Positions 4,690 to 58,400 of a stretch of 64,000 nt of DNA are shown piece after piece; within the stretch, counting starts at the first letter, position 1, and every line of letters starts with the position of its first letter. Source of the stretch: Paraspadella gotoi (lineage: Eukaryota; Animalia; Chaetognatha); NCBI GenBank assembly GCA_051294375.1, contig CM119264.1, positions 29,389,847 through 29,453,846 of the forward strand, written 5' to 3'. The translations under genes were made by a program, and so were the position numbers. Below the pieces are notes generated by a model. That model made no database searches and was not told the DNA's origin. It saw only the letters and a list, made by a program, of their open reading frames with translations.

Positions 4690-5182
4690 ATCAAACACTT
4701 TCCTACCCACACACAAAATTTCATTCTAATCTATCCATCCAATCACGAGTAATTGGTGTTTTTTGCTAAGGTCGGACGGACGGACGGACGGACGGACGGA
4801 CGGACGGCCTTTTTTTTTTGGTATAATTTATCATTAGGAGAAAAACAATTTTTATTTGTTTTGACAACGAATTTTAATGACAATTTGACAGACATGTTTC
4901 GACTCTGTATTTTTAGAGTCTTCATCACTCTAAAAATACAGAGTCGAAACATGTCTGTCAAATTGTCATTAAAATTCGTTGTCAAAACAAATAAAAATTG
5001 TTTTTCTCCTAATGCCCATAAACAACGAAATCGAAAGTCTATACACAATGGTATAATTTATCATAATTCCATGTTCTGACATGATATAAGTGAATGCCCG
5101 ACAAGATTGAGGGGGCGGACCGATGGACCGACAAAGTGGATTATAGAGTCGGGATTTGCTGATAAGCAGATGCGACTAAAAA
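4690..5182 (+). mobile_element. Non-autonomous Helentron/DINE-like repeat with a (GGAC)n core, interrupted by the fold-back insertion
   Basis: ACACTTTCC..CACACACAAAATTTCATT..CCAATCACGAGTAATTGG..(GGAC)n..GCGACTAA. A related copy without the insertion lies at about 37609-37795. Confidence 0.5.
4835..5048 (-). mobile_element. Fold-back insertion with a hammerhead-like core (Penelope-type remnant) and a 16-bp TSD
   Basis: 88-bp perfect inverted arms 4832-4919 and 4927-5014. TGGTATAATTTATCAT repeated at 4819-4834 and 5049-5064. Minus strand reads gTGATGA-AGACTC..GAGTC-GAAAC-ATGTC. Confidence 0.7.
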
Positions 5183-7002
5183 TGCAGGCCTGAGTAGCAA
5201 GCATGAGTAGCAAGCATGAGTAGCTCGCAAGAGTATCAGGCATGAGTGGCGGGAAATAAAAAAGGTCGTTCATTGAAAGAAATGTTAAGAGATGAGAAAG
5301 ATAAGGAAAATCTAGAAAGAAAAGAAGAGAAAAGAAAAGAAAAGAAAAGAAAAGAAAAGAAAAGAAAAGAAAAGAAAAGAAAAGAAAAGAAAAGAAAAGA
5401 AAAGAATAAAAAAGAAATTATAAGAAAAGAAAAGGGTAGAAAAAGAAATGGAGACAGAAAAGAAAGGACAGAAAACTGTAGAAAAAGATAACGAAAAAAA
5501 GCATGATAACATGTTTAAAAAAATAGGAAGGAAAAAAGAAAGAAAAGAAAAATAGAAAAAAAAAAGGAAAGAAAAAGTTTTCTTTGCGACGCCGAAAAGA
5601 GTCATAACTTTATTATGGGATAGTTAAGTCGAAAAAAAATGTGGCGAAAAACCTTGAGAGATTTTTTGGGGAGAGTTTGAATTTTTTTTCGTTCTCGGGT
5701 CGAGATTCGAGAATAAAAGCCAAGTAAAGAAGGAAATATGGTATAAAGGCTGAGGTATTGTCATTTTAGACCAAGGGTTGATATCTTACTGCGCAGGAGG
5801 TCATGATTCTGATATTTTCACTATTTTCCTTAAGGGGAGGAGGATCAATTTTTGGGCCTATATTCATTAGTTAGAGCTAATTTTTCTACTTTAGAACGTC
5901 GAAAACCGCAGCCCTCTATCATTTCGGAAAGCGGAGATATAGAGGTTACCAATGAAATTTCTTTGAAAAATTCCAGGCCCCAAACGGAATGACGGAGGAC
6001 TTTCATTTTTTGGTTCCAATATCCTCACCTGAATATCTAAGTCTGAGCGCATCCCTTTTTTTAAATTCTTACATCTTCATAGAAAAAAGTACAAAAGATT
6101 GAAATGGCCAAATCTTGGAAACGCAAAAAAAAATATTCAAAAAATTTTTTTTCCAAAAAACGATGCGGTCAGACCTGCGCAATCTCCTAAATATCTAATG
6201 AACAAAGTCGCGCTATTTTATCTTTCTTTATTTCTTTTTTCTGAATTTTTTTCAATTTTCCAAATTTTTATTTGAGTTTCAAAAACTTTTTCACGGTAAA
6301 ACACATTTTTTTCCCTTGCATTTTTAAAAAGTTCTTATTTTTTATTTTTACTGCACTAGACAAGAAAGAATAATGAAAGCGATCGTCGACGCAATTGATG
6401 CAGAGAAACAGCAAAGAAAAGTTGCCGTAAAATCAATCGTACCGTCTTAATCCTACTTTTCTTGTCAAAAAAGTTTTTAGATTTTTGAAAAAAAAAAAGA
6501 GAATTGGCGAAAGCGTTTGAGAATAATAACAAAAAGTGCAATGAGGAAAGTGAATCAACACCAGTCAAGGTAGATAACAAACAAACATAATAAATAAGAC
6601 AATGTAAAAAATCGCCTTTTTAATTGTAATCATCGAAGCCCCTTGCCGTATGACTGATCTCTTTGAGATCTGGCTGGATGACTCAGTGTCAGTATCGGGA
6701 TCGACAAAACGATGACGATGACAGAAGCAAATGCGACGATGAGTGCGACGACAAAACGAGTGACGCATAAAGCGACGATTGAAGCAGCAAAAGAGACGAG
6801 TATTGTGTGTCTGCTTGAGTCCGCTGCTTCAGGAGCTGCAGCAAGGGGCTTCGATGAAAAAAGTGTCAAAAAAGCATAATCAAATAGTGAATCAATGAAT
6901 TGTAAATCGCTTTAGCGATTTACTTTACCCTTGAATTTTGGTCATTTTTTTTTCCATTATTTTTTTTTTATTAAAAACTTTTTATTGATTTTTTATTAAC
7001 AG

Positions 7003-55400: not shown

Positions 55401-58400
55401 TCACAAAAAATCTATAAATCATTACTTATGAAATTTCCCTAATCCTTAGTATGTTTTAATTTATCATTCTATCATTCTATCCTTTCATTGAGCATGAGCA
55501 TTGAGCAATATGTTAAAAATTTTAGTTCATTTTAAATTTTATTTTCTTTGGTTTATATTTGGTTCATTTACAGGCACTAATTGAATGGACGTCACAGGTG
55601 AATTTCTGTTTTAAAAAGAATCAAAATTAATTATGATATTTATAATTTATATAACTTTCTACTAGTTGCTGTTTTTATTTATACTTTATAAATTATTTAT
55701 GTGTATAAAACATGGGTATAATCATGTAAAAAGTTATGTTAAAACATTTCAACTAATACTAATTGACTATTGAAAATACATTTTATATCAAAGTAATTTT
55801 AAATTTTAATTTGTAAACAGAATTAGTATGAACAGCTATTTTTTAAATAATCTCATTAATATTTCTAAAGCTTCATGTGTTTAAAGATTCATGTTTATAT
55901 TAGTAACATTTCATTTATGAAGAAAAAAATTTATTTGACAGGGAATACAACAAAGTGATGAAAAGGTTCAGAACATTGCACCAGAAAAATATTATATCCA
56001 AGATGCACATGACGGAAAAAACTTTCTTACTAAATAAATTTACATTCTACAGAATTGCATGATTGTTATGAAATGTACAGATATTTGAATAGTAATGTGT
56101 ATAAGGCGCAAGGTGGGCTGAAGATGACTATCCGCATCTTCTTTAATCCCTCTAGCAACCATGGAACGGGTCCTGGGCTTGGGGGTTTTCCACACCCCCA
56201 AGACGATTTACGGCCGTACTCACGCTTCCCACAGGGTAGGTACTGGGTTGGGAGTGAACACAACTCAGTACCTAGCTGATGGCTTCACTCAATGGGCCAC
56301 CGGTTCACGACTAAAGTTGTCATGCTTATAGGCGGGGTGAACCTATGTAATGCCCAACTACAGTATTTTCTACTTGGAAAGGATATTAAATTGTTTTTAA
56401 AACTATGTTTGGTAGACTTTGTATTATTTTTTTCAATTCGTTGTGTTTGATTTAGAGATGAAATAAAAACATTTTAATGGTTAATAATAACGATATAATG
56501 TTCTCACATGTAAACACATGTTTAGACTAATTGTTTTCCTCAGTCCTTGATCTTCAGCTGTTTCAACCTGTAAGCAGAATCCTTTTTTCTTTGTTGAACA
56601 CTTCAATTCTCTCCCTCTCTCTCTCTCAGCCCAAAGCCCGTTTCTTTAATACAATTCAATTCAATTGAATTCAATTCTCTCTCTCTTTCTCTTTCTCTCT
56701 CTCTCTTTCTTTCTTTCTTACTCAAAAATATTTTCATAACTTGATCTGCGCTGATGAAGGCTTACAATTAGTTGAAACAATTCCATTTTCATGTAAAAAC
56801 ATTTTATCATTGTTGTTAACCATTAAAATGTTATTCTACAGTCTCTAACTTTTGATAGTATTAAAAAATAATAATTTAATCATTTTTTGTTTAAGCAACT
56901 GAATCAGGGAATGGATGATGCAAGAGCTCTTGTGGATGATCTCTCAAGTCAATATGCACAGTGGAGAGATAGCCTTCTGGACTGCAAAACATGTTTGACC
57001 TCAGGTATTATTCTATTTTTAATAAAATGTTTTATTTTACTATTTTAAATGTTATTTTACAGCCCCTGTTGATGGTCTTGTAACAGCGGCCTACATTGCA
57101 TACATCAATTCTTTTCCATCAACTGTTAGAGCTTCTGTTTTGAACTATATTAAACAAGCTTGTAACACTAATCTTACTGGCTTCAAAAACGATTGTAAAC
57201 TAGATATTTGGGAAAGAGTTGTGGCAATAGAGCCTCGCCAAAGACATATATTCAATTTTCAAGATCCAAGAAAAAAAAACTTTTCAAAAAATGTTTTGTT
57301 AAAGCAAGAAGTCAGTTTTGAAGAAGTTTTAAAAAGGTCGTTGCCATCAGGACAATTAAGAAAAACTTTATCAACCTCTCGGTGTTCAATATCTTTACCA
57401 AATGTCGAGCTGGCGATGGAGGACATTAAAAAAATCAGATCCAGTGCACATAACGATGTGAACGAAGATAAAATTTTACATTTAAGGCCAAACTTTTCAA
57501 TTATTGACATTTTGAGCTCCCTTCCAGAATTATATGCTCAAGAAGGTAAAATAAAGTCAGTAGACCATATAACAATAAAAACAATGCTAGCGATTCGTAT
57601 TTCCCTTCATAATACATACTCTGGATGGCCAATTATTTTAGATTCAGATCAAACTACAGAATTATTAATGAGAACTATTTTGCAAAATTTGGATCAACCT
57701 CATCTGATGCTTGTTAATCCTTTGCAAGGGTCACCTTTAAAAGAACAGGAAATAAATTACAGCTGCATTTCAGCAGACAGTTTTCTACACAGCATTCTCG
57801 CTTATGAAGACGAAGAAGATAAATTTGATAATGAAGAGGATGCAGAAGAAACAGAGAATAATGAAATTGAATCTTTGGAGCATCAAAAATCTGCCAAAAA
57901 CCTTTGGAAAAAATCTGCGGGCTCAGCCAGTTTATTAACTCATTCTATAAGTAGAGCCATACTCATTACACCGCCTTCTCCTCCAAAACGAAATGTTGGA
58001 GGGATCTCAACTGAAATTATTGCGGAACCGACTTCTGCAGAAAAGTTTCTATGTCCAATAGATGGACTGTGGATAAAATCATGCGATGATAAAAACATCA
58101 ATCAATTTCTTATCGATGCAGTGACTTATGGAATTATTCTCATGTTGCTTAATACAGATTGCTGCGACTTACCAAAATCTTTTGAAAATGTGAAAAAAAA
58201 GAGTTGTATCACAGATGAGGATGGATGCAAAGCCTATAGAATATTGAATGGAACATATCGTTGTCATGAGAGATTTTCTCTCGTTTTTGTTTCTTCATTA
58301 AAAACTTTAAACAATGCATATGCTATGCAAAATATACATTTTTCAAATGTAATCGATGCCGAAGTTTCAAAGGAATTTTTGGCCGGTTCTTTGCTTTCCA

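What the first reader, a model, noticed from the sequence alone, without database searches (positions are those of the whole stretch)
4819..56848. Recurrent fold-back elements built around minimal hammerhead-ribozyme cores
Seen: at least five independent loci (4832-5014, 16832-16964, 30135-30193, 39336-39514, 56452-56848) are inverted repeats containing (C/G)TGATGA-A-stem-loop-GAAAC-N2-NTH, usually with the palindromic helix III ACATGT. Their helix II and flanking sequences differ, so these are several families sharing one architecture. In three of them the fold-back apex lies at or just 5' of the CTGATGA box. Established: minimal type I hammerheads with a palindromic helix III, active as dimers, mark the pLTRs of Penelope-like elements and animal retrozymes, and Penelope insertions often carry inverted pLTR pieces. 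Inference: a dense population of non-autonomous ribozyme-hairpin retroelements, most of them transcribed within a host intron, where they could cleave pre-mRNA or yield dsRNA.
Basis: partly seen in the sequence, partly recalled or inferred. Interest (0 to 1): 0.78.

Follow-up and report, generated by a model that had tools for sequence, protein, structure and literature searches.

The report
Mirror-image stubs of Penelope retroelement ends
These five short DNA hairpins are real, carry mostly damaged hammerhead-ribozyme motifs, and are likely the shortest back-to-back insertions of the ends of Penelope-type jumping genes, a known structure whose ribozymes are predicted to be folded shut rather than to cut the host gene's RNA.

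Summary
All five fold-backs are real and each holds a minimal type I hammerhead motif, with compensatory changes in helix II. Only one core (16877) is complete; L3 has a decayed core on the minus strand, not the stated TGATGA. The two best-kept copies show the known anatomy of endonuclease-bearing Penelope-like insertions: head-to-head arms, a 34-36 nt tail on one arm only, and a target duplication (16 and 12 bp). Contigs of four runs show very abundant families, two 3' ends, and many hammerhead families in this genome. Each arm has letters the other lacks, so two separate reverse-transcription starts are likely. No RT or GIY-YIG gene could be linked: no genome is held and the protein searches found none. 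Four of five lie in introns of a DNHD1-like dynein gene, but helix II is predicted to be lost in both fold-backs where it was computed (L1, L2), so pre-mRNA cutting is unlikely. The structure is in print, and this scan noted it in eight findings on other genomes. The one open detail is that the longer arm starts within about 12 nt of the core. Verdict: new families of a known kind; low interest.

The parts
4819..4834 (.). L1 left target-site duplication (16 bp; the last 3 nt also fit the arm, so 13-16 bp)
   Evidence: a related host repeat at 37606-37770 holds a similar target once
4832..4926 (-). L1 tail-less arm; starts at U4 of the hammerhead core (C3 lost), helix II 6 bp, helix III ACATGT
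4927..5014 (+). L1 tail-bearing arm; starts at the second base of helix II; the ATG of helix III (4951) opens a frame through arm and tail
5015..5048 (+). L1 tail, 34 nt, on this arm only
   Evidence: depth steps near 5014 and 5048-5050 in 4 of 4 runs
5049..5064 (.). L1 right target-site duplication
16784..16795 (.). L2 left target-site duplication (12 bp)
16796..16831 (-). L2 tail, 36 nt, on the left arm only; shares the motif CAACGAA with the tails of L1 and L5
   Evidence: an X5 contig runs from the hammerhead through the arm into this tail (record 17)
16832..16866 (-). L2 short tail-bearing arm (no hammerhead in this assembled version)
16867..16964 (+). L2 tail-less arm with the only complete core (C3 at 16877, cleavage triplet GUA); junction letters 16867-16876 unsure
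16960..16971 (.). L2 right target-site duplication (the first 5 nt also fit the arm, so 7-12 bp)
17172..17327 (.). second assembled version of L2 (tandem duplicate, core lacks C3)
27855..28081 (.). third, inverted and indel-rich version of L2
30135..30175 (-). L3 arm with decayed core CTAATAA (C3 position 30170), helix II GGTTT/AAACC, helix III ACATGT; starts about 5 nt before the core
30176..30193 (+). L3 second arm, starts at the end of loop II; no tail or target duplication found
39336..39514 (.). L4 decayed fold-back, arms 39336-39413 and 39429-39514, 15-nt spacer; both arms reach the core; both cores damaged; no target duplication found
56452..56848 (.). L5 decayed fold-back with a 207-nt spacer holding CT microsatellite; core at 56751 (+) with broken helix III; tail-like CAACGAA stretch beyond the left arm (about 56420-56451)
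63876..63996 (.). L6, fold-back without a hammerhead (59-nt arms, 4-nt spacer), right flank cut by the window; same kind not shown
16309..61900 (+). host DNHD1-like dynein heavy chain gene (approximate span of mapped exons); L2-L5 lie in its introns

Best explanation
The hairpins are head-to-head pairs of short hammerhead-bearing ends from several abundant repeat families, and they are likely dead, minimal insertions of endonuclease-bearing Penelope-like retrotransposons, each likely made by two reverse-transcription events primed from the two cut strands of the target. Shown: arms, one-sided tail, target duplication, two family 3' ends, hammerhead motif with covariation. Inferred: a Penelope RT-endonuclease makes a staggered cut in AT-rich DNA; one strand primes at the tail end of the RNA and the other about 35 nt further in; both copies stop early, often at the hammerhead, and their ends are joined. 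The template was uncut at the ribozyme wherever the core was copied. The ribozyme motif is a passenger and is predicted to be folded shut in the hairpin.
For: L1: 34-nt tail on one arm and 16-bp duplication; L2: 36-nt tail and 12-bp duplication. A related copy of L1's host repeat holds a similar target once. Depth steps near 5014 and 5048-5050 in 4 of 4 runs, with different flanks behind 5048/5050. In L1 and L2 the tail-less arm has extra 5' letters and the other arm has the tail, so neither is a copy of the other. Print: inverted 5'-truncated copy plus 30-40 bp tail at one end (PMC8557442); 31-bp tail, 8-10 bp duplications, pLTR holding the first codons of the ORF (PMC3846280); protein cuts and extends both strands, starts at two sites that bound the tail, and mainly uses uncut RNA (PMC11167929); minimal hammerheads with an extra base before helix II and palindromic helix III, including pairs on opposite strands 100-700 bp apart (PMC4209133). 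Contigs show other junction places in the same families, 16865/16921 and 16850/16924.
Against: No RT or GIY-YIG gene was linked: none of 259 window ORFs scanned hit such a Pfam family, and the arm peptide found no Penelope protein. Tail plus duplication are clear at only 2 of 5 loci; L3, L4 and L5 gave no convincing duplication. The L2 junction is unsure. Twin priming is not separated from a snap-back of one cDNA that then joins a second, tail-primed cDNA. PMC3846280 proposed self-priming on an antisense template instead.
Confidence: 0.8

Rival explanations
1. The fold-backs are non-autonomous palindromic elements that move as whole units from hairpin masters, using a Penelope enzyme in trans.
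For: The L1 junction bin has depth 190 in X3 against 30 in the right flank, and 14.6 in X6, which lacks that flank. One X6 contig joining 16848 to 16875 has depth 312 against a flank depth of about 3. Four families start their longer arm at nearly the same place.
Against: Every locus and contig joint seen has a different junction. Family copies run on upstream of the core (loose ends of 52 nt in X5 and median 148 in X1). A hairpin RNA would bury the 3' region needed for priming (inference). Contig depth is no copy number, and X6 may be RNA.
Confidence: 0.12
2. They are working intronic ribozymes or small-RNA sources that act on the dynein pre-mRNA.
For: Four of five lie in introns of the DNHD1-like gene. 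L2 has a full core on the sense strand, and helix II forms in the isolated motif (P about 0.99). Long hairpins are predicted.
Against: Helix II probability is 0.00 (L1) and 0.01 (L2) in the whole fold-back. Helix I is 2-3 bp. Four of five cores are damaged. The only same-strand partner near L2 lacks C3. Minimal hammerheads did not cut as monomers and cut poorly as dimers (PMC4209133). The decay of L3-L5 shows no sign of selection.
Confidence: 0.04
3. They are fold-back DNA transposons (MITE-like), chance palindromes or assembly artefacts, and the hammerhead letters are incidental.
For: The 16-36 kb block is duplicated and indel-rich, and the three versions of L2 disagree. The strict motif alone is not beyond chance. 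Rfam gives no hammerhead hit.
Against: The one-sided tail is family sequence. Contigs cover the L1 junction bin in 3 of 4 runs. Helix II covaries. All 6 tolerant hits lie inside fold-backs (with for L3).
Confidence: 0.04

Closest known systems
Insertion units of endonuclease-bearing Penelope-like elements (Penelope/Poseidon, Neptune, Hydra), with inverted pLTR and optional tail (PMC3846280, passages and Discussion read; PMC8557442, passages read)
   Same: Head-to-head 5'-truncated copies, a 30-40 nt tail at one end only, target duplication, AT-rich target, short palindrome at the junction (L2), hammerhead near the 3' end, a start codon inside the end repeat.
   Different: Here the whole unit is under 250 bp in L1 and L2 and has no ORF body. 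Duplications are 7-16 bp against 8-10 bp reported for Adineta. No autonomous partner was found, so the clade is not assigned.
Minimal type I hammerheads of metazoan PLEs (Cervera and de la Pena 2014, PMC4209133; parts 1-2 of 4 read)
   Same: Extra base before helix II, G10.1-C11.1 pair, helix II of 5-6 bp or more, palindromic helix III, many families per genome, pairs on opposite strands.
   Different: Most cores here are damaged, helix I is only 2-3 bp in the window copies, and the junction falls inside or beside the motif.
PAc Poseidon element of Anolis in vitro (Frangieh et al. 2024, PMC11167929; main text section read)
   Same: Two priming sites that bound the tail, both target strands extended, ORF start inside the hammerhead, uncut RNA as template.
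   Different: That work did not describe how the two cDNAs are joined or where they stop. PAc's ORF starts at helix II; here the candidate ATG is in helix III.
Animal non-LTR retrozymes (PMC7229834, passages; bioRxiv 10.64898/2026.07.22.740005, part 1 of 5 read)
   Same: Non-coding, type I hammerhead with palindromic helix III, tie to PLEs.
   Different: Retrozymes are head-to-tail tandem arrays with a hammerhead in each unit; these are single head-to-head pairs.

Membership tests
Endonuclease-bearing Penelope-like element insertion | Inverted 5'-truncated copy joined head-to-head | tested here: met
   (5 of 5 loci)
Endonuclease-bearing Penelope-like element insertion | 30-40 nt tail at one end only | tested here: met
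   clear at L1 and L2, tail-like at L5, not found at L3 and L4
Endonuclease-bearing Penelope-like element insertion | Target-site duplication | tested here: met
   2 of 5 loci (L1, L2); none convincing at the decayed L3-L5
Endonuclease-bearing Penelope-like element insertion | Minimal type I hammerhead in the end repeat | tested here: met
   motif in 5 of 5, complete in 1 of 5; helix II covaries
Endonuclease-bearing Penelope-like element insertion | Same ends flank an ORF with RT and GIY-YIG domains | tested here: inconclusive
   none in the window or by protein search; no genome held; loose ends give 30 letters only
Non-LTR retrozyme | Head-to-tail tandem units each with a complete hammerhead | tested here: not met
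   single head-to-head pairs; the only tandem pair (L2 and its duplicate) lies in a noisy duplicated block and the second core lacks C3
Non-LTR retrozyme | Circular RNA monomers | not testable with these tools
   no raw RNA reads offered
Active hammerhead ribozyme | Complete core and helices I-III able to form in context | tested here: not met
   four cores damaged; L2 helix II predicted at 0.01 in the fold-back; prediction only
Active hammerhead ribozyme | Self-cleavage in vitro or in vivo | not testable with these tools
   needs a cleavage assay
MITE or fold-back DNA transposon | Symmetric termini directly flanked by the duplication, fixed internal structure | tested here: not met
   one-sided tail and variable junctions

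The most novel reading that the evidence does not exclude
Across unrelated Penelope families in this genome the longer arm of a head-to-head stub starts in a narrow zone from about 12 nt before the hammerhead core to its second base (L1, L2, L3, L4 and one contig junction), and it is the tail-less arm in both cases that can be scored. The folded or protein-bound ribozyme, or an RNA start just before it, would then set where both cDNAs stop and are joined. That gives the Penelope hammerhead a structural role apart from cleavage and makes these stubs a genomic read-out of twin priming.
Probability: 0.3. Interest if true: 0.5.

Novelty: new member of a known kind. Interest (0 to 1): 0.24.

Why it matters
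As it stands, little: it adds several Penelope-type end families to an invertebrate genome and explains a class of intronic hairpins. The role of the hammerhead in Penelope transposition and the way the two ends are integrated are still open (PMC8557442, PMC11167929). Very short two-armed insertions keep both priming sites and both stop sites in under 250 bp, so a genome-wide map of their junctions could test twin priming and a stop at the ribozyme cheaply.

Tried and rejected
No whole genome is held, so no genome-wide count or walk to an autonomous element was possible. Rfam found no hammerhead in the whole window at E up to 1 or in two short stretches at E up to 10; only hairpin-type chance matches. 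The 40-residue arm peptide found nothing by word search. Its one HMMER hit, P0121, is a translated array of 83-residue repeats matching only over the hammerhead letters, so it is no link to a Penelope ORF. Pattern scans: 2 metagenome contigs carry the same motif with a 4-5 bp helix I but show no long ORF starting at the motif (their ORFs were not scanned against Pfam). 6 viral-contig matches were inspected by eye and showed no clear hammerhead. Sequencing runs: no RNA holder listed; X6 is only guessed to be RNA. Missing cover of the L1 junction and of L2's flanks in X5 or X6 was not used as evidence. I first read the higher depth at 4985-5004 as truncation of most copies 3' of the ribozyme and dropped that, because the loose ends there look like sister subfamilies. 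The supplement of PMC8557442 (1 file searched for three motifs) gave nothing relevant in the 4 passages shown. Lunse et al. (PMC5785218) is not held; it is known here only through the review PMC6765202 (passages). Supplements of the 2026 bioRxiv paper were not seen. The FMO protein search did not name the organism. The fold-back at 8213-8261 is a short AT-rich stretch with no motif hit and was set aside.
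Full report
Setting. The window is animal DNA, AT-rich, with microsatellites and assembly gaps. A DNHD1-like dynein heavy chain gene runs on the plus strand. Pfam dynein domains lie at 46366-60670, and the best relative is a DNHD1-like protein at 25% identity. A profile and tblastn with such proteins place further exons in order at 16309, 29212, 29828, 30459, 33510, 40283, 43091, 44047, 44551, 44828 and 45980 (several are weak singly, E 0.001-0.2, and rest on their order). 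A flavin monooxygenase gene sits antisense in one intron (35300-37121). L2, L3, L4 and L5 therefore lie in introns; L1 lies upstream of the first mapped exon and its context is unknown. The block 16024-26462 is repeated at about 27400-36537 with 83-92% identity and many indels, so copies inside it are not independent.

Observation. All five inverted repeats exist. A strict descriptor (full core, helix II of 4 bp or more, palindromic helix III) finds only L2; 18 of 200 block shuffles give at least one hit. With C3 free there are 4 hits, reached by 3 of 200 shuffles. A tolerant descriptor, written after seeing the loci and so favourable to them, finds 6 hits: one per locus plus the duplicate of L2. 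40 shuffles gave a mean of 0.2 and at most 2. All six lie inside fold-backs. Blastn finds fold-backs at 7 places against 0.375 per shuffle, with L3 too short to be listed. On 8 aligned motifs (6 window arms and 2 metagenome matches; the left arm of L5 and the duplicates were left out), 95% of helix II cells pair and 3 of 5 pairs change on both sides. None of 500 shuffles reached the overall pairing or covariation score, and slid controls were far lower. The structure was named by me and the rows are few and partly related, so this is support, not a probability. Rfam has no hit for these minimal forms.

Anatomy. L1 has 88-nt identical arms. The minus arm starts at U4 of the core and ends at 4832. 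The plus arm starts at the second base of helix II and runs 34 nt further (5015-5048). A 16-bp duplication frames the unit. The host is a GGAC-microsatellite repeat, and its relative at 37606-37770 holds a similar target sequence once, like an empty site. L2 has the same plan mirrored: a 36-nt tail on the left arm, the hammerhead on the tail-less right arm, and a 12-bp duplication. The tails of L1 and L2 and the stretch beyond L5's left arm share CAACGAA (the motif occurs 16 times in the window, so it is a weak sign alone). At the tail-less ends, 3 and 5 letters fit both element and target. L3, L4 and L5 are older and gave no convincing duplication. In L1 the ATG in helix III opens a frame through arm and tail; in L2 the similar frame starts at a later ATG and has a stop.

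Genome-wide hints from contigs. Contigs of 4 of the 9 listed runs were laid (X1 and X3 may be the source; X5 and X6 are from two other studies). On the L1 arm, summed depth in X1 is about 11,000 at the hammerhead, 64,000 near the arm's end, 15,000-19,000 in the tail and 20 just outside. All 4 runs show steps near 5014 and 5048-5050, which are the two 3' ends. Other copies have an intact core and run on upstream. On L2, the flanks have depth 68 and 95 in X1 against 59,000 in the tail and 71,000 on the hammerhead. 23 to 42 contigs per run leave the sequence right after helix III and 15 to 31 just before the core, so many families share the motif. Depth is no copy number, but the excess over the flanks is several hundredfold. 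One X5 contig runs from hammerhead through arm into the tail, so the tail is element sequence. Other head-to-head junctions appear: 16865/16921 and 16850/16924, where neither arm reaches the core, and one in the L1 family where the long arm starts about 5 nt before the core (X6 loose end at 4992). The L2 junction itself is unsure: the three assembled versions differ, and an X3 contig over it has 9 gaps.

Mechanism. This is the published plan of endonuclease-bearing Penelope-like insertions: an inverted 5'-truncated copy and a 30-40 bp tail at one end (PMC8557442), with 8-10 bp duplications and the first codons of the ORF inside the end repeat (PMC3846280). Purified PAc protein cuts and extends both target strands, starts at two RNA sites that bound the tail, and mainly uses uncut RNA (PMC11167929). 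In L1 and L2 each arm has letters that the other lacks, so a simple fold-back of one cDNA cannot give the unit and two priming events are the simplest account (inference). How the two cDNA ends are joined is not shown, and PMC3846280 proposed self-priming on an antisense template. Arms that include the core must come from RNA not cut at the ribozyme. No RT or GIY-YIG gene was linked: 259 window ORFs of 55 residues or more that passed a complexity filter had no such Pfam hit, and the arm peptide found no Penelope protein. Membership therefore rests on anatomy.

Function in the host. Folding predicts that the long hairpin removes helix II (probability 0.00 for L1 and 0.01 for L2; 0.99 for the isolated motifs). 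Only L2 has a full core on the pre-mRNA strand, with a 2-bp helix I and no intact tandem partner. Minimal hammerheads did not cut as monomers in vitro (PMC4209133). Pre-mRNA cleavage is thus unlikely. Double-stranded RNA is expected if the introns are read, but nothing here shows small RNAs or any use, and three copies have decayed freely.

What is open. Counting C3 as 0, the longer arm starts at +1 (L1), -1 to -10 (L2), about -5 (L3), between -12 and +1 (both arms of L4) and about -5 (the X6 junction). L5 cannot be scored. Choosing loci by their hammerhead forces an arm to reach the core but not to stop right before it, so the clustering may be real. The sample is five, and other junctions lie 3' of the cut site. 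A stall at the ribozyme and an RNA start just upstream both fit. In D. virilis the intron ends at helix I and the start site lies 46 bp before the intron, which fits neither exactly. Paper searches for Penelope with twin priming (3 papers listed, none on PLE mechanism by title), Penelope-like with head-to-head, truncated and hammerhead (0), and Penelope with hammerhead and fold-back (0) found no description of this clustering in the held library; subscription papers are not covered. This scan's own notes list the same architecture and similar readings in eight findings on other genomes; they are unchecked notes, not independent support.

Verdict. Observation partly confirmed; interpretation partly supported. 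These are new families of a known kind, most likely dead Penelope stubs. Interest 0.24.

Noticed in passing
window 16309-61900 (+) and 35300-37121 (-): A DNHD1-like dynein gene spans at least 45 kb, has three exons over 3 kb, and holds an antisense flavin monooxygenase gene in an intron; the FMO's listed relatives (49-57% identity) are mostly unnamed metagenome or bacterial trimethylamine monooxygenase-type proteins.
   Followed up: partly
window 16024-26462 and 27400-36537: Large duplicated block, partly inverted, 83-92% identical with many indels; likely an uncollapsed haplotype or noisy gap fill.
   Followed up: partly
window 63876-63996: Sixth fold-back (59-nt arms, 4-nt spacer) without a hammerhead; about 38 nt beyond the left arm could be a tail, but the right flank is cut by the window.
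   Followed up: partly
window 16528-16740 and 56118-56342: Two 64% identical copies of an unidentified GC-richer repeat, each about 40-110 nt to the left of a fold-back (L2, L5).
   Followed up: no
window 19796-19996, 30216-30408, 39571-39748: Another unidentified short repeat with an internal hairpin, next to L3 and L4; scan notes report twister-bearing SINE-like families in this genome, but Rfam gave no twister hit here.
   Followed up: partly
window 4690-4830 and 37606-37770: Repeat family with a GGAC microsatellite; L1 inserted into one copy. It recalls DINE-1/Helentron-type elements (recalled, not tested).
   Followed up: partly
window 56544-56585 (-): The left part of L5's spacer resembles a second, partial copy of helix II and the GAAAC box, like a stutter next to the ribozyme.
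   Followed up: no
P0121: A database 'protein' of 83-residue repeats that carries the translated hammerhead letters in each unit; probably a translated retrozyme-like array from another organism.
   Followed up: partly
L001 1692-1738 (-), L002 1489-1534 (-): Metagenome contigs with the same minimal hammerhead and a 4-5 bp helix I, without an inverted partner in view.
   Followed up: partly
window 38063-38744, 39884-40327, 43141-43601, 6974-7572: Tandem arrays with units of about 122, 12, 34 and 18 nt; no hammerhead hit in them.
   Followed up: no
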